This document shows positions 44,475 through 53,433 of a DNA stretch of 64,000 bases, piece by piece. The notes under the pieces were generated by a model that was not told the origin of the DNA, searched no databases, and saw only the letters and a list, made by a program, of their open reading frames with translations. The position numbers were made by a program, and so were the translations under genes. Positions within the stretch are counted from its first letter, which is position 1. Every line of letters begins with the position of its first letter. This DNA comes from Candidatus Babeliales bacterium (GTDB lineage Bacteria; Babelota; Babeliae; Babelales; Vermiphilaceae), in assembly GCA_963743635.1 (NCBI GenBank), contig CAVUQO010000002.1, positions 224,001-288,000 on the forward strand, written 5' to 3'.

Positions 44475-45647
44475 GTGAAAAGGTTGTCATTGCCCGTACA
44501 ACTTCTATTGGTTATAGCTGGTGTATTATTGTTTGGTTCTTATGCGAGCGAGATGGTGGTGCGTACCTGCTTTACCTTTAGTACGGTCTTTAAGGATCTT
44601 TTGGGGCTGTTGCTTCCATGGATATTATTTACGTTTGTGGCAACCGGTATTCTCTCATTTAAAAAGAATGCACCGTTAGTGCTTGCGATTATGGTTGCAA
44701 TGATTTTTATATCCAATGGATTGGCTGCATTGCTTACGTTCTTTGTTGCGCAGCAAGTCATTCCCTTCATGGGAAGTGCATTTGGCGCTGATTGTTGTGC
44801 ACAGAATGCATTGCCTTCATTAAAACCCTACGTTTCGTTGCAATTGCCGATTCCTGATAATGCAGGGATTATGGCATTGCTTGCTGCGTTGGGTGTGGGC
44901 ATGTTCTTATCGTTTGTATCTATTCCTGAAGTTGAGCGCATGCTTACAATCGTAAAAAGAATGGTCGAATATGTGCTCATGCGTGTCTTTATTCCATTCT
45001 TGCCGCTGTATGTACTGGGGTTTCTGCTTGAAGTGAAATATAAGGGAGTATTTTTAAGTTTGTTTGAGCAGTATGGCAGTGCGGTAGTGGTGATTGTAAC
45101 CCTGCAGATTGCATATCTTGCATGGCTGTATTTCGTTGCGACCGGTTTTTCATTCAGCAAAGCGAAGGAAGCAATTGCAAATGCATTGCCGAGTTATTTG
45201 ACTGCTTTTAGCACGATGTCCAGCACTGCAACCATTCCCGTTAGCGTTGTCTGTGCTGAAAAAAATACCGGAAACCGTCCATTGGCTGATGTGGCGATGC
45301 CAATTATGGCAAACGTACATTTGCTGGGCGATGGGATTAGTACTCCGATGTTAGCATTGGTGACGATGTCTATATTCTTATGCGGCATGCCCAGTTTTAT
45401 TCAGTATGCGACGTTTGTGATCTACTTTTGCATGTCAATGTTTGCTGCATCAGGTGTTCCGGGCGGGGGTATTTTGGTGATGATGCCAATTTTAAAATCG
45501 CAGCTCGGATTTACTCCTGAAATGCAAAGCATGATTCTTACTATTTACATGCTCATGGATTCATTTGGTACTGCATCAAATGTGATGGGCGATGGTGCGT
45601 TAGTGATGATGCTCAATAGTGTTCTTAAAAAATTCAAGATTCAATAA
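44475..45647 (+). CDS. Dicarboxylate/amino acid:cation symporter (DAACS)
   Basis: [29 protein letters not shown]. Confidence 0.9.
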
Positions 45648-46257
45648 CGTAGCATTGCTTGCAACGTGCTTGATACGATTCTTCTGCGCCAATCATAATG
45701 ATCGGGTCGCTGTAGCGCGCTGGTTTTCCATTGATAATGCGCTGTGAGCGGTAGGCGTCCGTTCCGCAAATCGTACAAATTGCTTGAAGTTTGGTGACCG
45801 TATCGGCGAGTGCAAGGATTGCGCCCATTGGTCCAAACGGTTACGATAATCAAGATCAAGGCCGGCAATAATAACGCGTTTGCCTTGTGCAATGAGTGTG
45901 CGAATAACCGGAATGATCTCGTTAGAAAAGAATTGTACTTCATCGATTGCGATAACATCGTAGTGATTAGCAGCAACCAAATCAAGAAGGTCTTGCGGAG
46001 AGCTTATAGGTCGAGCGTCATAAGTCGTGCCGTTGTGCGAAGTTATGGTGTTACTCGCAGCGCGTGTATCGAGCATTGGTTTTACCACTAATAGATTGAT
46101 GTGCGATATCTGCACGAATAAGACGACGAATCAGTTCTTCCGATTTGCCGGCAAACATAGGCCCACAAATCACCTCGAGTTTTGCCTGAAATGAATGGAT
46201 GAGATGCGTGGCAACGAATGAGCTGCTTACGATAAGGCTCAATAATAATTTTTTCAT
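45634..46257 (-). CDS. tdk: Thymidine kinase with N-terminal signal peptide (frameshifted in assembly)
   Basis: [52 protein letters not shown]. Confidence 0.85.
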
Positions 46258-46264
46258 GGCATAT

Positions 46265-47615
46265 CTATTCGGTAAAGAGTGATAATAATTCATAAACGTT
46301 CGTAAAATATTTGATAGCACATGAAGTTTTATCAATTTTTTGGTTTTTGGCAACAAGAATTTGCTTGATGCCAAATTTTTCTGCTTCACAAATGCAATTG
46401 ATTTGATTAATAGGTTTAATTTGTCCGGTTAGACTAATTTCCCCTAAAGCGAGTGATTTTTCTGGCAATGGTTGTTGAAAATAACTGGAAAGCAGTGCAA
46501 GGGCAATGCCCAAATCGGTGGCACTTCCTTTAATTTTAAATCCGCCACTTACTTTAAAGAAAATATCTTGTGAGCTTAATTTAATATGTAGATATTTTTC
46601 TAAAATTGCCGCAATGAGCACAACCTGTTTATGATCAAGGCCGGAAACAACGCGTTGCGGAATGCCAAGTTTTGATTCGATGGTGAGTGCTTGCAATTCA
46701 ATAAGTAGCGGGCGCGATCCTTCAATCACGCTGACTAAGACCGATCCCGGATGCATGCGAAAGTTCACTTATAAAGTTGTTCGTTAATATTGGGTACTTC
46801 TTCAAGCCCTTCTTCTCCCATTTCAAAAAAACCAAGTTCATTAATCGTACCAAAACGATTTTTTACCGAGCGTAAAACACGCGTTTGCCAACGATCTTCG
46901 CCTTGCAGATAAAAGACGGCATCGACCATATGTTCTAATGTTTTAGGGCCCGCAATAGTGCCTTCTTTGGTAATATGTCCGCTCACAATTACGGTGATAT
47001 TGTGTTCTTTTGCCAAACGCATGAGATGAAAGCTGATTCACGCAGTTGGCCAACACTTCCCGGGAAATGTAGTTGCTGAGCTCGCGGTGTAGCAATTTTG
47101 AATCGAATCGATGATCACAATATCCGGCTTTTTGCTTGCGCAGGTTGCAATAATTGTCTTCTAAATCTGCTTGATCAGAAAAAAGAAGATTGTCATTGAT
47201 ACATTCCAAGCGCTCAGCACGTTGTTTTACTTGTTGCAAAGATTCTTCGGTGGAAAAATAAAAAACACGATATGTTTTTCGCAAGGCGATTGCAAATTTG
47301 CAGTAGCAAAGTTGATTTACCAATGCCAGGGTCACCGGTTAAAATGAGTAGTGAGCTGGGCATAATGCCGCCGCCCACCACGCGATCCCATTCATCAATG
47401 CCGGAAAACATACGCGTCTTTTTGTGCGTGGGAGCATCATCGAGATTGCATCATAGTTACGCGTGCAGCCGTTATTTTGGCACCCGAGGGAATTGGGAGC
47501 AGTGGTTTACTTCAGTGAGTGAATTCCATTCATTGCATTCAGGGCAACAGCCCATCCATTTGAGCGTTTGATAGTTGCAGTTGGAACAGGTGAAAGTGAT
47601 TTTTTGTTTACTCAT
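46265..47615 (-). CDS. radA: DNA repair protein RadA/Sms (frameshifted in assembly)
   Basis: N-terminal Zn finger, GDPGIGKSTLL, GHITKEG.IAGPK.LEHMVD, KNRFG, Lon-like C-terminus. Confidence 0.92.
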
Positions 47616-48192
47616 GGATTTGAAACTCGGGGTGTTTATCAATACTATAACAATTTCTACAGCGTGCTTGGTATGCTTCTTGCGTGCCGATCATAATAAT
47701 AGGATCTTGATATTGGGCAGGTTTGCCATTCACTAACCGTTGAGTATAGTGCGCATCTTGGCCACATGCAGGCAGATTGCACGTAATTTGGTAATTTCAT
47801 CGGCAATAGCAAGCAAGATGGGCATGGGACCAAAAGGTTCGCCACGAAAATTAAGATCAAGCCCAGCCACAATAATGCGTTTTCCTTTATTGATGAGTTC
47901 GCAGATCGTATGAATGATTGTGCGCGGAAAAAATTGGATTTCATCAATGCCCATTACTTCAATATGATGCCATGCAAGTTCAAAAATGATCTGTTCATTA
48001 TCTACCGCATGAGCATCAATTTTACTGCCATCGTGGGAATAAACGTATTCGACTAGCGGTTCGACTATCGAACTGTGTTTAAAGGCAACAACTTGTTTTT
48101 GCAATTTTTGCACGCCGCAATCTGCGAATGAGTTCTTCTGATTTGCCAGAAAACATGGGGCCGCAAATAACCTCTAAACGTCCATGATCCAT
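47612..48192 (-). CDS. tdk: Thymidine kinase, cytoplasmic (frameshifted in assembly)
   Basis: [45 protein letters not shown]. Confidence 0.88.
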
Positions 48193-48289
48193 TGAATATA
48201 CTCCTGGTATGACCTTACTATGAGATGACGATATAATCTAGTATACTGTGGGGGGTTAAAAAGTGAAAATGATCATTGGAGATTGCACT

Positions 48290-48757
<468 letters not shown>

Positions 48758-48914
48758 CGGGGAGGCAGTAAAAATCCTATAATGGGCAAAAGGGCGTGAT
48801 ATTGGGATGATTTAGAGGCCGCAGAGAAGAATGGTCTGCTCAAGAGGTCTATTTGGAAGGGAAATTAGTTAAAACAGCCGTTTTGGCTGTTTTAAGGGCC
48901 CCTTTAGTTTCTAC

Positions 48915-48943
48915 TTGAAATAATATTAAAGTTCTGTTATAAT
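48915..48943 (+). promoter_or_regulatory. Sigma70 promoter of the RBR ligase gene
   Basis: TTGAAA-N17-TATAAT with extended -10 TG. Confidence 0.65.
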
Positions 48944-49005
48944 GGTATCTAGGAAGAGAAAAAAGTGATTTTTACTCTTATTATTAACCAAAAAAGGGAG
49001 ATATC

Positions 49006-50301
49006 ATGAAATTTATAACACAATTAGTATTAGTATCAATGGTCCTTACTGGCCAATCGATATCCGCTATGAGCGCAAAAGCACTGGCGGCTTATAGAGA
49101 GCGTGAAATGGCAGGAAGAACAGAGCAAGCCTCTGCAGCTTCAAGCAGCTCATCATCGTCCTCATCAGCGAGCAGTCAATCATCAGAAGGGGAAGCGCGT
49201 AGACCTAAAGGAAAACGAGCTTTAACGCGTCAAGAATTGACACAGATGGAACAACAAGAAAAAGCAGCCATAGAGGCACTAAAATTGGCAGAAAAAGCAG
49301 CGTATGAAGCAGAGGATAAAGCAAGAGAAGAAGCAAAAAAACTCGAAGCATTAGCTGCAGAATTGGCACAAGAAGAGTGGAATTTGGAAAGGCAAGCTGC
49401 AGAGAAACTTGCAAAGCAAGATGAAGAATTAGCGAAACAATTGCAAAAACAAGCAAGTATTGAAGCAAAAGAAGAAGAATTGAATACTCTTAAACAGCAG
49501 CAGCAGATTGCAGAAAAAGATGCGCTGTTAGCGAAGCAATTGGCAGAGCAGGTAGAGGCAGAAGCGCAAGAGCTTAAGCAGCGAATTGCCGAAGATGAAG
49601 AACTAGCGAGAAAATTAGCTGAAGAAAGTGGCCCTTCTGGTCAGTCGAGTGCGAGTAGTTCTTCACAAGCGGCCGAGCTCCAGCAGTGCGGCATTTGTAT
49701 GGAAGACGTTGAGCCGCAGAATATGGTAAATCTTGCATGTCAGCATGCCTATTGCCGTGGATGTTTGACTCAGCTTGTTGAAACCGGTCTTAAGGAAAAA
49801 AATATTGAAGGTATTAAGTGCCCAACGTCTGAATGTAATGCTCCAATGACCCGGGCAGATATTTTTGATATTACGCAAAATCCTGCAAAAGTTGAGGAAT
49901 ATAATGCTATCGCTACCGAGACAGCCCTACCTAAGCTGCAAGGTATCAGGCAGTGTCCTACGGCGAACTGTCCATACCAATTTTTAAATGAAGCAGATGA
50001 GACTCAGGAAACGCGGTGTCCTATGTGCACAAAGCGCTATTGCGCAAACTGCTTAAAAGAGCACAGTGCTCGCATGTCGTGCGAACAAGCGGCAGCTGAC
50101 GCGGCAATGACCTCAGATGATCGGGAGCGGGCAACGGAAGAATGGAAAAAAACACACACAAAGCCATGTCCGAAATGTAACGTTTCAATTGAGAAAGATG
50201 CAGGATGTAATCATATGAGATGCATAACTCCTAGCTGCAGCCACCAGTTTTGTTGGGTGTGTAAACAGCCATGGAACGCAGACCATTACCGCTGTCAGTG
50301 A
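49006..50301 (+). CDS. Secreted RBR (RING1-IBR-RING2) E3 ubiquitin ligase-like effector
   Basis: Signal peptide; CGIC..ACQHAYCRGC..CPTSEC; CPTANC..CPMC..YCANC..H..C; CPKC..IEKDAGCNHMRC..C.HQFCWVC. Confidence 0.92.
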   Translation: MKFITQLVLVSMVLTGQSISAMSAKALAAYREREMAGRTEQASAASSSSSSSSSASSQSSEGEARRPKGKRALTRQELTQMEQQEKAAIEALKLAEKAAYEAEDKAREEAKKLEALAAELAQEEWNLERQAAEKLAKQDEELAKQLQKQASIEAKEEELNTLKQQQQIAEKDALLAKQLAEQVEAEAQELKQRIAEDEELARKLAEESGPSGQSSASSSSQAAELQQCGICMEDVEPQNMVNLACQHAYCRGCLTQLVETGLKEKNIEGIKCPTSECNAPMTRADIFDITQNPAKVEEYNAIATETALPKLQGIRQCPTANCPYQFLNEADETQETRCPMCTKRYCANCLKEHSARMSCEQAAADAAMTSDDRERATEEWKKTHTKPCPKCNVSIEKDAGCNHMRCITPSCSHQFCWVCKQPWNADHYRCQ

Positions 50302-50482
50302 CCGTTATAATTATAGGTATAAATCTGTGCCCCCTTGTTTCTGACTAGAAAATAAGGGGGCTACTATTTCTAGATGGGCAGCAAAAATCCTAAAAAAGTG
50401 TATACTGATAAGGATTTTGATAAATACCTATGCCTGGCCTGATACCTAAAAAGCCATGGCTTTCAGTGATGTGGAATGATTT

Positions 50483-51228
50483 ATGAAAAAAATAATACAA
50501 AAACCAGCATTGGTGACCTTAAATACTTATCTTGCTCATGCGGGCGTTTGTTCTCGTCGAAAAGCGGCTGAATTGGTTGAATCGGGCGTCGTGCGCGTCA
50601 ACCAGCAGGTTGTGGCTGATCCCGGCTATCGGGTAAAACCAGATGATATCGTGGAAGTCTCGGGAAGAAACATTACTCCTGAAGATCACGTCTATGTTTT
50701 GCTTAATAAGCCAAAAGATTATGTAACGACCGTTTCAGATGAGCGTGGCCGTAAAACAGTCATGGACTTAGTTCGCGGTGCTGGGCACGTTCGGCTGTAT
50801 CCCATTGGGCGCCTTGATCGGATTACAACCGGATTATTGCTCATGACCAATGATGGTGCATTTGCAGAAAAATTGGCCCATCCTCGCTATGAAGTAGAAA
50901 AAGTATACACGGTGACGCTTGATAAGAGCGTGAGCTCTGGTGATATACAGACGATTATGCGTGGAATTCAGCTTGAAGATGGATTGATTAAGGTGGATGA
51001 TATAGCGTATACGGGGACCACCAAAAGAGAGGTTACCTTAGCGCTTCACAGCGGAAAATATCGGGTTGTGCGTAGAATATTTGAACAACTTGGGTATGAT
51101 GTGCGTAAGCTTGACCGTATAGAATATGCAGGGTTAACCAAAAAAGAGTACCGGTTGGTATGTGGCGTTACCTGACGGATGGCGAAGTTGCCGCACTAAA
51201 AAGAATGAAAAATGAGGAAAAGGAATAA
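50483..51228 (+). CDS. rluB: 23S rRNA pseudouridine synthase (RluB/RsuA family; frameshift near the end)
   Basis: S4 domain GVCSRRKA, GRLD.ITTGLLLMTNDG. Confidence 0.9.
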
Positions 51229-51230
51229 TC

Positions 51231-52015
51231 ATGGATTATGGAACGATTGTTCGTATTGGTATTTTGGTCGCAATGGGCGTAGTTGGCATTTCTGCCATGA
51301 AACGCGTCTTAACCAGAGCTCTCGAGCGATGGTACAATGATCCAGTTCGCATACCGATTATGGTACGATTGTTGACCTATTTAGCGGTATTTATTGTCGG
51401 TGCCTCAATTATGCAAGAATTGGGCATTAATATTACTGCATTGTTGGGTGCTGCAGGGATCTTGGGTGTGGCCATTGGTTTTGCCGCACAAGCGAGCGTC
51501 AGTAATATCATCAGTGGTATATTTATCCTGATCGAACGTCCGTTCTCAATAGATGATGAAATTCAAATTGATGAGTTCAGTGGAAAAGTGGTAGACATCA
51601 ATCTATTTTCTATCGGATTGCTGACTCCCGATCATCGTTCTATTCGTATTCCGCACGAAAAATTATTGAAAAACGTTATCATCAATAAAACTCATCGCGC
51701 AAAGCGCCGTTACGAAGTCACTATTGCATTAGCATCGTATGAAGATCTTGATCGTGCACGTGCAGTGTTTGTGGATGCTATGCGTAATGAATCGTATTGC
51801 CTAATCTCACCTGAGCCAATTGTGTGGGTGGATACAATCAATGGCGATGTAACGCAATTGATCGTTGGTGTTTGGGTTGATAGCAGCAAATTGGTTGAAG
51901 CAAAACACCGTCTTGTTGGCGCGTTATATCCCGCGTGTAAAAAAGAAAATATACATCTCATCAACCATCTACGATGTCGATACAAGTCACGCAGAAGTAA
52001 TTTCAACAATGATGT
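51231..52015 (+). CDS. mscS: Small-conductance mechanosensitive channel (end approximate)
   Basis: LGAAGILGVAIGFAAQ..VSNIISG..ILIERPF. Confidence 0.88.
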
Positions 52016-52100
52016 GAGTTTTTGTAGGCAACGTCTGGATCTTATGATACGCTCCTTGCATAAATTATGTAAAAATTATCTATGCGTAGCAGGTATTCGT

Positions 52101-53433
52101 ATGTCAAATGCTCATCTCGTCATTGAACAATCGTGGGGTCTTTCAGGAGAATTGGAATTGGTTGGCGCAAAAAATGCGGTGCTGGTCATTATGGCAGCAT
52201 TAATTTTGACGCGCGGCAAGTCAGTTCTAAAAAATGTTCCGGCATCATCTGATGTCGATCAAATGATTTTAGTGCTCGAAGAATTGGGCGCTCAGGTTAC
52301 GTTCTGTCGCAAAGAACATCGTCTTGAAGTTGATACAACGTTCCATCTCAAAATACAGCGTCAGTCCTGAAATCATGCGCAAGATGCGGGCATCCATTTT
52401 AGTAATGGGGCCGTTACTTGCACGCTTTGGTAAAGCAGATATTGCATTGCCGGGCGGTTGCGTCATTGGCGCGCGTCCCGTTGATTATCACATCAAAAAT
52501 TTTGAACAAATGGGCGTCATGGTTGAAATGCATGGTGACTACTTAAAAGCAGTAGCGCCAGTTTTGCAGGCAACCACGTTAGTGCTCGATTATCCAAGCG
52601 TTGGTGCAACTGAAAATATTATGATGGCTGCAGCGCTGACGCCGGGCGTAACGCGCATTATTAATGCCGCATTAGAGCCGGAAGTGTTGGATTGCATTGA
52701 AGTGCTGCGTAAAATGGGTGCAGATATTGCGATTTTACCGCCAGCAACGCTTGAAATTAGAGGCGTGAGCTCGCTAAAACCCATTGAGCATGCGATTGTC
52801 TATGATCGTTTAGAAGCGGGCGCATTATTGCTAGCTGCGGCGATTACGGGCGGAAATATTTCATTGCCACAAGCGCCAGCATACACGATGGATATTGTGA
52901 TTAAGAAATTACGAGATATGGGGCATATTCTGAACGTGGGTGCAGATGGGGTCGGAATTACCTTACACGCAACGCAAACGCCGCGCGCCGTATCATTCAA
53001 GACTGGTCCATATCCGAGCTTTCCGACCGATTTACAAGCGCCTATGATGGCAGCGCAATGTATTGCCAATGGCACGAGTATGGTCGAAGAGACGGTTTTT
53101 GAAAATCGTTTGGTGCATGTGCGTGAATTGCAAAAAATGGGTGCGCAGATTACCGTTGAGCACAATAAAGCAACGGTAATGGGTGTTGAGGAATTGTATG
53201 GAACGCAGATCATTGCAACCGATATTCGCTCTTCATGCGCATTAGTTCTTGCGGGATTAGTGGCAAAAGGAGCAACGCATATGACCGGCATTCATCATTG
53301 GCAACGAGGTTATGAAATGCTTGAGCGTAAACTTGCTCATTTGGGTGCGCGTATTGCGCTTAAAGAATTCGAGCCAGCTCGCGTTGAGTTTGACGAAACT
53401 CTTGATAAGAAATGGCACGAAGTACAATCGTAG
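52101..53433 (+). CDS. murA: UDP-N-acetylglucosamine 1-carboxyvinyltransferase (frameshift near 52350)
   Basis: GAKNA, MRAS, LPGGCVIGARP, SVGATEN, FPTDLQ, FENR. Confidence 0.95.

What the first reader, a model, noticed from the sequence alone, without database searches (positions are those of the whole stretch)
49006..50301. Bacterial secreted RBR (Ariadne/Parkin-type) E3 ubiquitin ligase
Seen: a Sec-type signal peptide, a poly-Ser linker, a long charged helix, then a complete RING1-IBR-RING2 triad (about 49687-50298). The triad includes the Rcat motif EKDAGCNHMRC with the catalytic Cys and His. The gene has its own sigma70 promoter, RBS and terminator and no introns, and it is flanked by bacterial genes. 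Known: RBR ligases (HHARI, Parkin, HOIP, RNF14) are a eukaryotic class. The bacterial E3 mimics I can name are HECT-like, RING/U-box, NEL, SidC and SidE types. Inference: a host-targeted effector acquired from a protist or giant virus. It has no C-terminal Ariadne autoinhibitory domain, so it may be constitutively active.
Basis: partly seen in the sequence, partly recalled or inferred. Interest (0 to 1): 0.9.

Follow-up and report, generated by a model that had tools for sequence, protein, structure and literature searches.

The report
Secreted RBR ubiquitin ligase in Dependentiae
A small bacterium that lives inside protists encodes an intact, export-tagged copy of the Parkin/Ariadne type of ubiquitin ligase, one of a large family of such genes in its phylum that I did not find described in print and that probably tags host proteins.

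Summary
ORF 49006-50301 (+), 431 aa, is intact. It has an N-terminal Sec-type hydrophobic leader, a poly-Ser linker, one 132-residue charged helix and a complete RING1-IBR-Rcat module with every zinc ligand and the Cys401/His403 pair. Pfam, PDB sequence search (ARIH2, E 6e-31), AlphaFold2 (pLDDT 94) and Foldseek (ARIH2, ARIH1, HOIL-1, parkin, HOIP) all agree.

It is not contamination. Bacterial genes flank it in a 1.45-Mb, 3-contig genome of the Dependentiae (Babeliales), and its G+C matches the flanks. Contigs from two independent metagenome studies carry the identical gene.

It is not a one-off. 46 of 261 genomes of the phylum carry IBR/RBR genes, with up to 7 per genome in tandem arrays. 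Most have the same leader, 12 of 57 scanned have ankyrin repeats, and none has an Ariadne domain. These bacterial proteins form their own clade apart from eukaryotic and giant-virus Ariadne proteins, so any transfer was old, not recent.

No E2 was found in 261 genomes of the phylum. No ubiquitin or E1 was found in this genome. The ligase must therefore use host enzymes.

NCBI already auto-names relatives "RBR family RING finger protein", but ten full-text searches found no paper on bacterial RBR ligases. Secretion, the route into the host and catalysis are inferred, not shown.

The parts
48915..48943 (+). sigma-70-type promoter, TTGAAA - 17 nt - TATAAT with TG before the -10 box
   Evidence: 11 of 12 matches, the best site in 48200-50600
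48996..49000 (+). ribosome-binding site GGGAG, 5 nt before the ATG
   Evidence: read from the sequence
49006..50301 (+). CDS, 431 aa plus stop: secreted RBR-type E3 ligase homolog
   Evidence: Contigs from two studies carry the identical sequence
49006..49068 (+). Sec-type signal peptide, aa 1-21, with predicted cleavage between ISA and MS
   Evidence: Hydropathy 2.4 over a 10-aa window, plus my reading of the -3/-1 rule. No SignalP was available
49138..49215 (+). Ser-rich disordered linker, aa 45-70
   Evidence: pLDDT below 50; sequence
49228..49623 (+). single long E/K/A/Q-rich alpha-helix, aa 75-206
   Evidence: helix 75-206 at pLDDT 94-97; weak heptads, 55 of 132 residues charged
49420..49443 (+). 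motif DEELAKQL (aa 139-146), first of three D-x-x-L-A-x-x-L repeats, possibly ubiquitin-binding (MIU-like)
   Evidence: three or more such motifs in 2 of 20000 shuffles, with the pattern chosen post hoc. The MIU likeness is recalled. A weak sub-threshold Pfam CCDC50_N hit covers aa 133-207
49519..49542 (+). motif DALLAKQL (aa 172-179), second repeat
49594..49617 (+). motif DEELARKL (aa 197-204), third repeat
49687..49836 (+). RING1, C3HC4: C228 C231 C245 H247 C250 C253 C272 C277; the expected E2~Ub docking domain
   Evidence: (zf-RING_UBOX and zf-C3HC4 above cut-off)
49894..50082 (+). IBR domain: C317 C322 C338 C341 C346 C349 H353 C359
   Evidence: (PF01485, aa 297-359)
50149..50295 (+). Rcat (RING2): zinc ligands C388 C391 C406 C411 and C416 C419 H427 C430
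   Evidence: (IBR_2 and IBR_1, aa 382-426), alignment to ARIH2
50206..50214 (+). codons of Cys401-Asn402-His403, the predicted thioester cysteine and general-base histidine
   Evidence: The alignment places them on GCNHM of ARIH2. Cys is kept in 164 of 164 bacterial-set domains and His in 113 of 164
50329..50361 (+). G+C-rich hairpin after the stop codon, a probable terminator
   Evidence: centroid stem, z -2.44. The consensus scan did not call it

Best explanation
The gene encodes a Sec-exported effector of an obligate intracellular Dependentiae (Babeliales) bacterium. It is a true homolog of eukaryotic RING-between-RING E3 ubiquitin ligases of the Ariadne type.

Proposed mechanism:
1. The 21-residue leader takes the unfolded, cysteine-rich chain through SecYEG. 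This step is inferred.
2. The protein leaves the cell by a route that is not established. Candidates are the genome's type II/type IV-pilus-like secretin machinery and vesicles. This step is inferred.
3. In the reducing, zinc-containing host cytosol the RBR module folds.
4. RING1 binds a host E2~ubiquitin. By analogy with ARIH1/2 this would be a UBE2L3-type E2.
5. Ubiquitin passes to Cys401 as a thioester.
6. With His403, and Gln414 at the third triad place, ubiquitin is passed on to host substrates.

The enzyme lacks the Ariadne domain and the other regulatory domains of eukaryotic RBRs, so it is probably not autoinhibited in the Ariadne manner. The 132-residue helix is the only candidate for targeting, spacing or ubiquitin binding.

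The gene is one member of an old, diversifying, phylum-wide effector family. It is not a recent import.
For: Identity of the module:
- Pfam RING, IBR and Rcat models all score above cut-off.
- ARIH2 matches at E 6e-31 over aa 226-430, with GCNHM aligned.
- The AlphaFold2 model has pLDDT 94.2.
- Foldseek gives probability 1.00 to ARIH2, ARIH1, HOIL-1, parkin, RNF216 and HOIP.
- All 24 zinc ligands are present.

Selection for catalysis:
- The catalytic Cys is kept in 164 of 164 bacterial-set RBR domains.

Bacterial origin:
- The window is G000:C2:224001-288000 of a 1.45-Mb, 3-contig genome.
- The flanking genes are bacterial.
- G+C is 0.44-0.45 in the gene against 0.39-0.49 around it.
- It has a bacterial promoter and ribosome-binding site.
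- Contigs in a peat study and a soil study carry it with 0 differences.
- A variant differing at 2 residues lies on another contig.

Family:
- IBR is found in 46 of 261 genomes and 31 of 145 genera of the phylum. Five of these (G185, G242, G251, G024, G123) are single-contig genomes. It is found in 0 of 14 control genomes.
- Record titles and NCBI names say Candidatus Dependentiae.
- The bacterial versus eukaryote/virus split is 100/100 in the careful tree.

Export:
- A hydrophobic N-terminus is present in 113 of 147 top hits and 15 of 18 phylum loci. It is present in only 3 of 18 named eukaryotic, 0 of 8 unnamed Ariadne-domain and 1 of 6 giant-virus proteins.
- The genome has two secretins and two T2SSE ATPases.
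- No DsbA was found (controls 8 of 14).

Host dependence:
- UQ_con was found in 0 of 261 genomes of the phylum.
- No ubiquitin and no ThiF were found in this genome (the ThiF control rang in 12 of 14).
Against: - No experiment or RNA data bear on it. No listed sequencing run that holds the stretch is RNA.
- The leader was judged by a hydropathy rule, not by a trained predictor.
- 34 of 147 top hits lack a hydrophobic N-terminus. Some of them may be truncated gene calls.
- Sec export reaches only the periplasm, and no injection system was found: no VirB4, and T3SS was not searched.
- Type II secretion normally exports folded proteins, so the route to the host cytosol is open.
- The UQ_con, ubiquitin, UCH and U-box searches had no positive control anywhere.
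- The genome is 85% complete.
- No substrate-binding domain is recognisable in this member.
- The query's own position in the tree is weakly supported, and the AU test did not reject it as sister to the eukaryote/virus group (p 0.30).
- No single Logan contig bridges the gene and a flanking gene.
Confidence: 0.7

Rival explanations
1. This genome acquired the gene recently from a protist host or a giant virus. On this view it is not a vertically inherited member of a bacterial family.
For: - RBR ligases are universal in eukaryotes and present in giant viruses (22 viral loci).
- The AU test did not reject a tree with the query held together with the 24 eukaryotic and viral rows (8.1 lnL worse, p 0.30).
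- Its Rcat has the C-x4-C spacing (MRCITPSC) also seen in plant ARI proteins.
Against: - Its best matches are signal-peptide-bearing bacterial or metagenomic proteins at 35-46% identity. Eukaryotic proteins reach 27-32% and giant-virus proteins 24-30%.
- Its nearest rows in both trees are all bacterial.
- Its G+C equals that of its flanks.
- It has a bacterial leader, promoter and ribosome-binding site.
- It has no Ariadne or UBA-like domain, whereas most of the eukaryotic proteins listed carry Ariadne-type Pfam domains (PF19422, PF21235).
Confidence: 0.08
2. The protein is a decoy, not a ligase. Once secreted, it binds host E2~ubiquitin or neddylated cullin-RING complexes, as ARIH1/2 do, and blocks them without transferring ubiquitin itself.
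For: - It has no recognisable substrate-binding domain.
- Some paralogs have lost the His two residues after the Cys: 51 of 164 carry another residue there.
Against: - The catalytic Cys is invariant in 164 of 164 bacterial-set domains.
- The query keeps Cys401, His403 and Gln414.
- A pure binder would not need the Rcat cysteine.
Confidence: 0.1
3. The protein stays with the bacterium, in the periplasm, on the surface or in a vacuole lumen. There it does something other than host-cytosol ubiquitination, for example zinc binding or adhesion through the long helix.
For: - Sec export alone ends in the periplasm.
- No type IV secretion ATPase was found.
- A weak, far sub-threshold TolA-like match covers the helix (TIGR02794, 19.6 bits against a cut-off of 59.45).
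Against: - A complete RBR module with an invariant catalytic Cys has no known use without E2~Ub.
- UQ_con was found in 0 of 261 genomes of the phylum.
- 12 of 57 relatives scanned pair the module with ankyrin repeats. The Chromulinavorax paper treats ankyrin repeats as host-directed effector parts (passages seen).
Confidence: 0.1
4. The gene is eukaryotic or viral DNA that was wrongly binned or joined into a bacterial assembly.
For: The genome is a metagenome-type assembly in 3 contigs, and several neighbouring genes are frameshifted.
Against: - The gene lies about 50 kb inside a 64-kb window of bacterial genes on a contig of at least 288 kb.
- Its composition is the same as its surroundings.
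- Contigs from two studies tile the gene and both intergenic flanks with 0 differences.
- The family occurs in five single-contig genomes of the phylum.
Confidence: 0.02

Closest known systems
ARIH2 (TRIAD1) and ARIH1 (HHARI), the eukaryotic Ariadne-subfamily RBR E3 ligases (PDB 7od1, 7oni, 4kbl, 5udh)
   Same: - Same RING1-IBR-Rcat order and spacing.
- All zinc ligands present.
- The GCNHM catalytic loop aligns.
- 31% identity over about 200 residues, E 6e-31 by sequence and 6e-13 by fold.
   Different: - No acidic or UBA-like N-terminus.
- No C-terminal Ariadne autoinhibitory domain.
- No evident cullin-binding part.
- Instead it has a Sec leader, a poly-Ser linker and a 132-residue helix.
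- It is encoded by a bacterium in which no ubiquitin, E1 or E2 gene was found.
Giant-virus (Nucleocytoviricota) RBR proteins from IMG/VR GVMAG contigs
   Same: A non-eukaryotic genome carrying a complete RBR module (22 loci).
   Different: - Only 24-30% identical to the query.
- 5 of the 6 that I translated have no hydrophobic leader. L023-L025 have acidic N-termini, which I recall as Ariadne-like.
- 4 of the 6 giant-virus rows sit in the Ariadne clade of the 103-row tree. The 4 kept in the careful tree are on the eukaryotic side of the 100/100 split.
Known bacterial E3 effectors: NEL (IpaH/SspH), HECT-like (SopA, NleL), SidC/SdcA, U-box/RING (LubX, GobX, NleG) and SidE. This list is recalled, not retrieved.
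   Same: On my reading, a bacterial protein that hijacks host ubiquitination. Like NEL, HECT-like and SidC enzymes, it would work through a Cys-ubiquitin thioester.
   Different: - By my recollection, NEL, SopA-type and SidC enzymes are convergent folds. This protein is a direct sequence homolog of a eukaryotic thioester-forming class.
- It carries a Sec leader, not a type III or type IV secretion signal.
Other Dependentiae RBR proteins, which NCBI auto-names 'RBR family RING finger protein' or 'IBR domain-containing protein' (MFC1842378.1, HRN78528.1)
   Same: Same clade, the same leader-plus-RBR plan and no Ariadne domain.
   Different: - The nearest relative is only 42% identical, and only over the RBR part.
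- The long helix with three D-x-x-L-A-x-x-L motifs is peculiar to this protein: 0 of 147 other hits have two or more.
- 12 of 57 relatives scanned carry ankyrin repeats instead.

Membership tests
RBR (RING-between-RING / TRIAD) E3 ligases | N-terminal canonical RING1 with eight zinc ligands (C3HC4) | tested here: met
   C228 C231 C245 H247 C250 C253 C272 C277. zf-RING_UBOX scores 29.6 bits against 25.2, and zf-C3HC4 25.9 against 21.
RBR (RING-between-RING / TRIAD) E3 ligases | Central IBR domain (C6HC) | tested here: met
   PF01485 scores 49.6 bits against a cut-off of 24.3, over aa 297-359. The ligands are C317 C322 C338 C341 C346 C349 H353 C359.
RBR (RING-between-RING / TRIAD) E3 ligases | C-terminal Rcat/RING2 with a non-ligand catalytic cysteine between the zinc ligands, and His two residues after it | tested here: met
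   IBR_2 scores 50.6 bits and IBR_1 48.4 bits. GC401NH403M aligns with GCNHM of ARIH2. The Cys is kept in 164 of 164 relatives.
RBR (RING-between-RING / TRIAD) E3 ligases | Three-dimensional fold of the three domains | tested here: met
   AlphaFold2 pLDDT 94.2. Foldseek gives 56 PDB matches at E <= 0.001; the rows shown are RBR ligases (ARIH2 first, 6e-13), each at probability 1.00. TM-scores are about 0.5; I attribute this to differing relative domain orientations.
RBR (RING-between-RING / TRIAD) E3 ligases | Formation of an E3~ubiquitin thioester from E2~Ub and transfer to a substrate | not testable with these tools
   This needs biochemistry: E1, UBE2L3 and ubiquitin with the wild-type protein and a Cys401 mutant.
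Ariadne subfamily (ARIH1/ARIH2/ARI) | C-terminal Ariadne domain that masks the Rcat cysteine | tested here: not met
   The ORF stops one residue after C430. There is no PF19422 hit, and 0 of 57 bacterial relatives scanned have one.
Ariadne subfamily (ARIH1/ARIH2/ARI) | N-terminal acidic/UBA-like region (PF21235) | tested here: not met
   Pfam gives no hit at E <= 0.1. The N-terminus is a leader, poly-Ser and a helix.
Ariadne subfamily (ARIH1/ARIH2/ARI) | The RBR core is closest in sequence to Ariadne proteins among eukaryotic subfamilies | tested here: met
   ARIH2 6e-31 and ARIH1 1e-26, against parkin 6e-11, RNF216 2e-7 and HOIP 1e-6.
Sec-dependent secreted proteins (signal peptidase I substrates) | N-terminal n-h-c tripartite leader with small residues at -1 and -3, and no lipobox or twin-arginine motif | tested here: inconclusive
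   The features are present by eye and by hydropathy (2.4 over 10 residues). No trained predictor was available, and cleavage is unproven.

The most novel reading that the evidence does not exclude
Dependentiae have turned the eukaryotic RBR fold into a large, fast-diversifying family of Sec-exported effector ligases. This would be the first bacterial E3 class that is a direct homolog of a thioester-forming eukaryotic E3. These enzymes would be stripped of autoinhibition and charged by host UBE2L3-type E2s. In this member, a roughly 20-nm single helix with three MIU-like D-x-x-L-A-x-x-L motifs would read ubiquitin. The enzyme would then extend or edit ubiquitin marks that the host has already placed, for example on the parasite's own compartment.
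Probability: 0.35. Interest if true: 0.85.

Novelty: new variant of a known kind. Interest (0 to 1): 0.65.

Why it matters
The textbook view is that RBR ligases (parkin, HOIP, ARIH1/2) are eukaryotic. It also holds that bacterial pathogens imitate ubiquitin ligases mainly with unrelated folds, or with simple RING/U-box domains. That summary is recalled, not retrieved.

If these Dependentiae proteins are active, three things follow:
- Bacteria would also deploy true RBR enzymes.
- The enzymes would be minimal, regulator-free cores (RBR plus a targeting module). That form would be convenient for mechanistic and structural work on RBR catalysis.
- They would point to the host pathways that a very widespread but almost unstudied phylum of protist parasites manipulates.

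The family's size also makes it a natural experiment in how substrate-targeting parts are swapped onto one catalytic core. It occurs in 46 of 261 genomes, with up to 7 genes per genome in tandem arrays and with ankyrin fusions.

Tried and rejected
- Word-indexed homolog search with the RBR part found only the protein itself, 1 of 340 candidates. The exhaustive search then found 12,041.
- The search for related loci with the 53-row alignment failed because no stretch was conserved enough. With the single protein it found no relative in genome contigs or viral contigs. A 9-row alignment worked.
- The 103-row quick tree proved unreliable. The AU run found a constrained tree 48 lnL better than the free one. 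I therefore rebuilt with 60 rows by the careful method.
- Complex prediction on two copies of the helix (aa 72-210) gave no verdict, score 0.00. This says nothing either way on dimerisation.
- The helix (aa 125-222) has no meaningful match to PDB sequences; the best E-value is 0.11, to designed proteins. The MIU idea therefore rests on a post hoc pattern, my recollection of the MIU consensus and a sub-threshold CCDC50_N hit. The RNF168 paper I opened did not print the consensus.
- The motif is absent from the other bacterial RBRs: 0 of 147 have two or more.
- NCBIfam has no model for the family.
- No listed holder among the sequencing runs is on record as RNA.
- No single Logan contig spans the gene plus a neighbouring gene.
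- A positive control for UQ_con on giant-virus records failed. 4 of 5 records were not held, and the one searched had no match.
- The earlier-findings index holds no look-alike sequence and no bacterial RBR note among the 8 shown of 32.
- Three MAGs labelled Myxococcota, Competibacteraceae and Planctomycetota also carry IBR hits on short contigs. I did not resolve whether these are real or mis-binned.
Full report
**What is there.** Window 49006-50301 (+) is one intact ORF of 431 codons.
- Residues 1-21 (MKFITQLVLVSMVLTGQSISA) have a basic residue, a 14-residue hydrophobic core and small residues at -1 and -3. There is no Cys and no twin Arg.
- An AlphaFold2 model of the whole protein (mean pLDDT 86.7) gives a disordered Ser-rich stretch at aa 45-70.
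- It then gives one uninterrupted helix at aa 75-206 (pLDDT 94-97), a disordered linker at aa 207-218 and a compact C-terminal module.
- The helix is 42% charged and has only weak heptad periodicity, with 3-4 of 8 a/d places strongly hydrophobic. It looks more like a single stable helix or a weak coiled coil than a classical one.

**The C-terminal module is an RBR.**
- Pfam finds a RING (aa 228-273), an IBR (aa 297-359) and an Rcat-type IBR_1/IBR_2 (aa 382-426), all above their gathering cut-offs.
- A search of all PDB sequences puts ARIH2 first (E 6e-31, aa 226-430). ARIH1, cullin-9, parkin, RNF216, HOIL-1 and HOIP follow.
- In that alignment, the query's EKDAGCNHMRC lies on ARIH2's EKNGGCNHMQC.
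- The ligand pattern is complete: C3HC4 in RING1, C6HC in the IBR and two four-ligand sites in Rcat. Cys401 is the free cysteine, and His403 lies two residues later.
- Gln414 stands where I recall parkin Glu444 and HOIP Gln896 to stand.
- An AlphaFold2 model of aa 222-431, built on 53 homologs, has pLDDT 94.2. Foldseek matches it to solved RBR structures at probability 1.00, with ARIH2 first at 6e-13.
- The ORF ends one residue after the last ligand, so there is no Ariadne domain.

**It belongs to the bacterium.**
- The window is positions 224001-288000 of contig 2 of a 1,454,283-base, 3-contig genome. Completeness is 85.17% and contamination 1.27%.
- The neighbours are ordinary bacterial genes: an SDF symporter, thymidine kinase, RadA, an RluB-like synthase, MscS, MurA, ATP synthase gamma and YacP.
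- G+C in the gene (0.44-0.45) lies inside the local range of 0.39-0.49.
- A near-consensus extended -10 promoter (48915-48943, 11 of 12) and a GGGAG ribosome-binding site precede the gene. A G+C-rich hairpin follows it. The terminator scan did not call that hairpin.
- Nine public runs from 3 studies hold part of the stretch, and none is on record as RNA.
- I laid contigs of four runs from a peat study and a soil study on the window. One 1,396-base contig (48987-50382) covers the whole gene with 0 differences in the soil study. Two contigs (48746-49199 and 49171-50369) do so in the peat study. Adjoining contigs continue into the RluB-like gene.
- No single contig bridges the gene and a neighbouring gene, so short-read continuity is tiled, not spanned.
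- A protein differing at two residues (G37R, E378A) is on record from another 3,063-base contig.

**Which organism.**
- Two loci that share contig and coordinates with genomes the tool places in this genome's family f1 are titled Candidatus Dependentiae bacterium. They are L050 = G210 and L051 = G251.
- Named relatives of the protein carry the same label.
- Two records labelled 'uncultured Pseudomonadota' (L045, L047) are the same contigs as G229 and G191 of family f1, so that label is unreliable.

**It is one of a family.**
- IBR matches occur in 46 of 261 genomes of the phylum and in 31 of 145 genera.
- By family, not counting this genome: f1 17 of 79, f2 7 of 41, f5 2 of 14, f6 1 of 7, f9 2 of 8, f18 14 of 35, f19 1 of 12 and f20 1 of 8. 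Thirteen families have none. None of the 14 control genomes has a match.
- The positives include the single-contig genomes G185, G242, G251, G024 and G123.
- This genome has one such gene.
- By my count of the listed places, G242 and G194 each have seven genes. Five of G242's lie within 15 kb.
- An exhaustive search of 1.84 billion representatives gave 12,041 hits at E <= 0.001 and 137 at E <= 1e-30.
- The top hits are 35-46% identical to the query. Of the 147 I examined, leaving out two multi-RBR eukaryotic proteins, 113 have a hydrophobic N-terminus. So do 15 of 18 proteins from genomes of the phylum. Among named eukaryotic, unnamed Ariadne-domain and giant-virus proteins the counts are 3 of 18, 0 of 8 and 1 of 6. 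This is a hydropathy rule, not a trained predictor.
- Of 57 top hits scanned with Pfam, 57 have IBR, 12 have ankyrin repeats and none has an Ariadne domain.
- The catalytic cysteine is kept in 164 of 164 bacterial-set domains. The His is kept in 113 of 164, and Glu or Gln at the third place in 104 of 164.

**Relationship to eukaryotic and viral RBRs.**
- Named eukaryotic Ariadne proteins (plant ARI2/7/8, Anaeramoeba, a springtail) are 27-32% identical to the query.
- Giant-virus proteins are 24-30% identical over full-length matches. Five of the 6 that I translated have no hydrophobic leader.
- A quick 103-row tree put all 71 bacterial and metagenomic rows on one side of a branch (SH-aLRT 90). 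Eukaryotic rows and four viral rows fell in an Ariadne clade (SH-aLRT 93).
- That search was poor: a constrained search found a tree 48 log-likelihood units better.
- I therefore rebuilt with 60 rows. I dropped 16 long or compositionally odd rows: L030, P0186, L053, P0183, L017, P0177, L010, P0007, P0140, P0169, P0159, L027, P0134, P0096, P0121 and P0131. I also dropped the remaining genome-contig loci (L045-L050) and kept 22 of the 48 metagenome rows.
- The careful tree separates 35 bacterial from 24 eukaryotic or viral rows at 100/100. The bootstrap had not settled (correlation 0.844).
- The query's nearest rows are all bacterial, but no strongly supported small clade holds it.
- Holding the query with the eukaryotic and viral rows costs 8.1 log-likelihood units and is not rejected (p-AU 0.30).
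- The family is therefore clearly distinct and old. The query may sit deep in it. The tree is unrooted, so the direction of transfer is inferred from function, not shown.

**How it probably works.**
- UQ_con was found in 0 of 261 genomes of the phylum.
- In this genome there was no match to ubiquitin, ThiF, UCH or U-box.
- Only the ThiF search had ringing controls (12 of 14). The others have no positive control, and the genome is 85% complete.
- An RBR is useless without E2~Ub, so a host-directed role is the economical reading.
- The leader implies Sec export of an unfolded chain.
- The genome has two secretins and two T2SSE-type ATPases. No VirB4 and no DsbA (controls 8 of 14) were found.
- How the protein crosses the outer membrane and any host membrane is not established.
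- Without the Ariadne domain, the core is likely to be active once folded. I recall that the isolated cores of HHARI and HOIP are active.
- This member has no recognisable substrate-binding domain.
- The helix carries three copies of D-x-x-L-A-x-x-L, at aa 139, 172 and 197. That many occurred in 2 of 20,000 composition-preserving shuffles, but I chose the pattern after seeing it.
- The motif resembles my recollection of the MIU ubiquitin-binding motif. It overlaps a sub-threshold CCDC50_N match.
- It has no PDB sequence support and is not shared by relatives (0 of 147). I rate ubiquitin binding by the helix at roughly one in five.

**What is known.**
- Ten full-text searches covered: Dependentiae, TM6, Babela, Babeliales or Babelota with ubiquitin or E3; RBR or IBR with Legionella or eukaryotic-like; 'bacterial RBR' and variants; RING-between-RING with bacterial effector and horizontal gene transfer; PF01485 or IBR domain with bacteria; and one on the MIU motif. 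None found a paper describing bacterial RBR ligases.
- In passages I read, the Babela genome paper lists an F-box protein, 'a RING finger domain protein' and three secreted C19 hydrolases (PMC4378268).
- The Chromulinavorax paper mentions ubiquitin only in a reference and stresses ankyrin proteins with signal peptides (PMC6561590).
- The TM6 comparative-genomics paper has no hit for ubiquitin, RING or IBR (PMC4776705).
- I did not read supplements, and subscription journals are not in the library.
- NCBI's pipeline already names relatives 'RBR family RING finger protein' and 'IBR domain-containing protein'. NCBIfam has no model for them.

**Verdict.** The protein is a real bacterial RBR homolog and a member of a substantial family of apparently exported proteins in Dependentiae that I did not find described. 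Its function as a host-directed, Cys401-dependent ubiquitin ligase is well motivated but unproven.

Noticed in passing
window 45634-48113 and 51231-53433: Several housekeeping genes next to the RBR gene are broken into pieces in different frames. Thymidine kinase is in three ORFs (45634-46389). A RadA-like gene is in about four (46265-47411). A second TK fragment lies at 47733-48113. MurA is split at about 52324-52370, with its N-terminus fused in frame to an MscS ORF. All four sequencing runs laid insert an A behind 51139, so at least one of these frameshifts is an assembly error or a strain difference. The RBR gene itself is intact and identical in those runs.
   Followed up: partly
N-termini of RBR homologs (P0003-P0150); in the window, aa 20-23 (SAMS), nt 49063-49074: Right after the hydrophobic leader, many family members have [A/G/S]-Met-[polar], for example VAME, MAMQ, NAME and MGME. 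This is seen in 51 of 113 leader-bearing hits, against 5 of 147 in a control window at aa 61-85. It may be a lineage-typical signal-peptidase site with Met at +1, or a second start codon that would give a non-exported form.
   Followed up: partly
window 48263-48757 (+): The gene just upstream encodes a 164-aa protein with a hydrophobic N-terminus, no Pfam match and a C-terminal run of 17 Asp. It has its own promoter-like site at 48209-48237. It may be another exported effector.
   Followed up: no
window 46051-46389 (-): The first thymidine kinase fragment starts with a leader-like segment ([19 protein letters not shown]...) ahead of the P-loop. This hints at an exported or membrane-tethered nucleoside kinase.
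   Followed up: no
window 41022-44378 (-): A 1118-aa multi-pass membrane protein has no Pfam family at E <= 0.001.
   Followed up: no
G242:C1:585206-600171; G194:C2:76556-82618; G201:C1:986356-988688: In related genomes the RBR genes sit in tandem arrays, five within 15 kb in G242. That is the pattern of a family expanding by local duplication.
   Followed up: partly
L045, L047 (genome contigs records): Two MAG records titled 'uncultured Pseudomonadota bacterium' share contig and coordinates with genomes that the genome tool places in this Dependentiae family (G229, G191). The public label is probably wrong.
   Followed up: yes
L053, L054, L055: IBR/RBR hits also occur on short contigs (5.6-14 kb) of MAGs labelled Myxococcota, Competibacteraceae and Planctomycetota. 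The Myxococcota-labelled protein has a leader and falls, on a long branch, among the bacterial rows. These may be real spread to other phyla or mis-binning.
   Followed up: no
RBR paralogs, Rcat loop: 51 of 164 bacterial-set domains keep the catalytic Cys but replace the His two residues later, with Tyr in 19 and Phe, Trp, Ser, Ala or others in the rest. This could mean a different acceptor chemistry or altered regulation in those paralogs.
   Followed up: no
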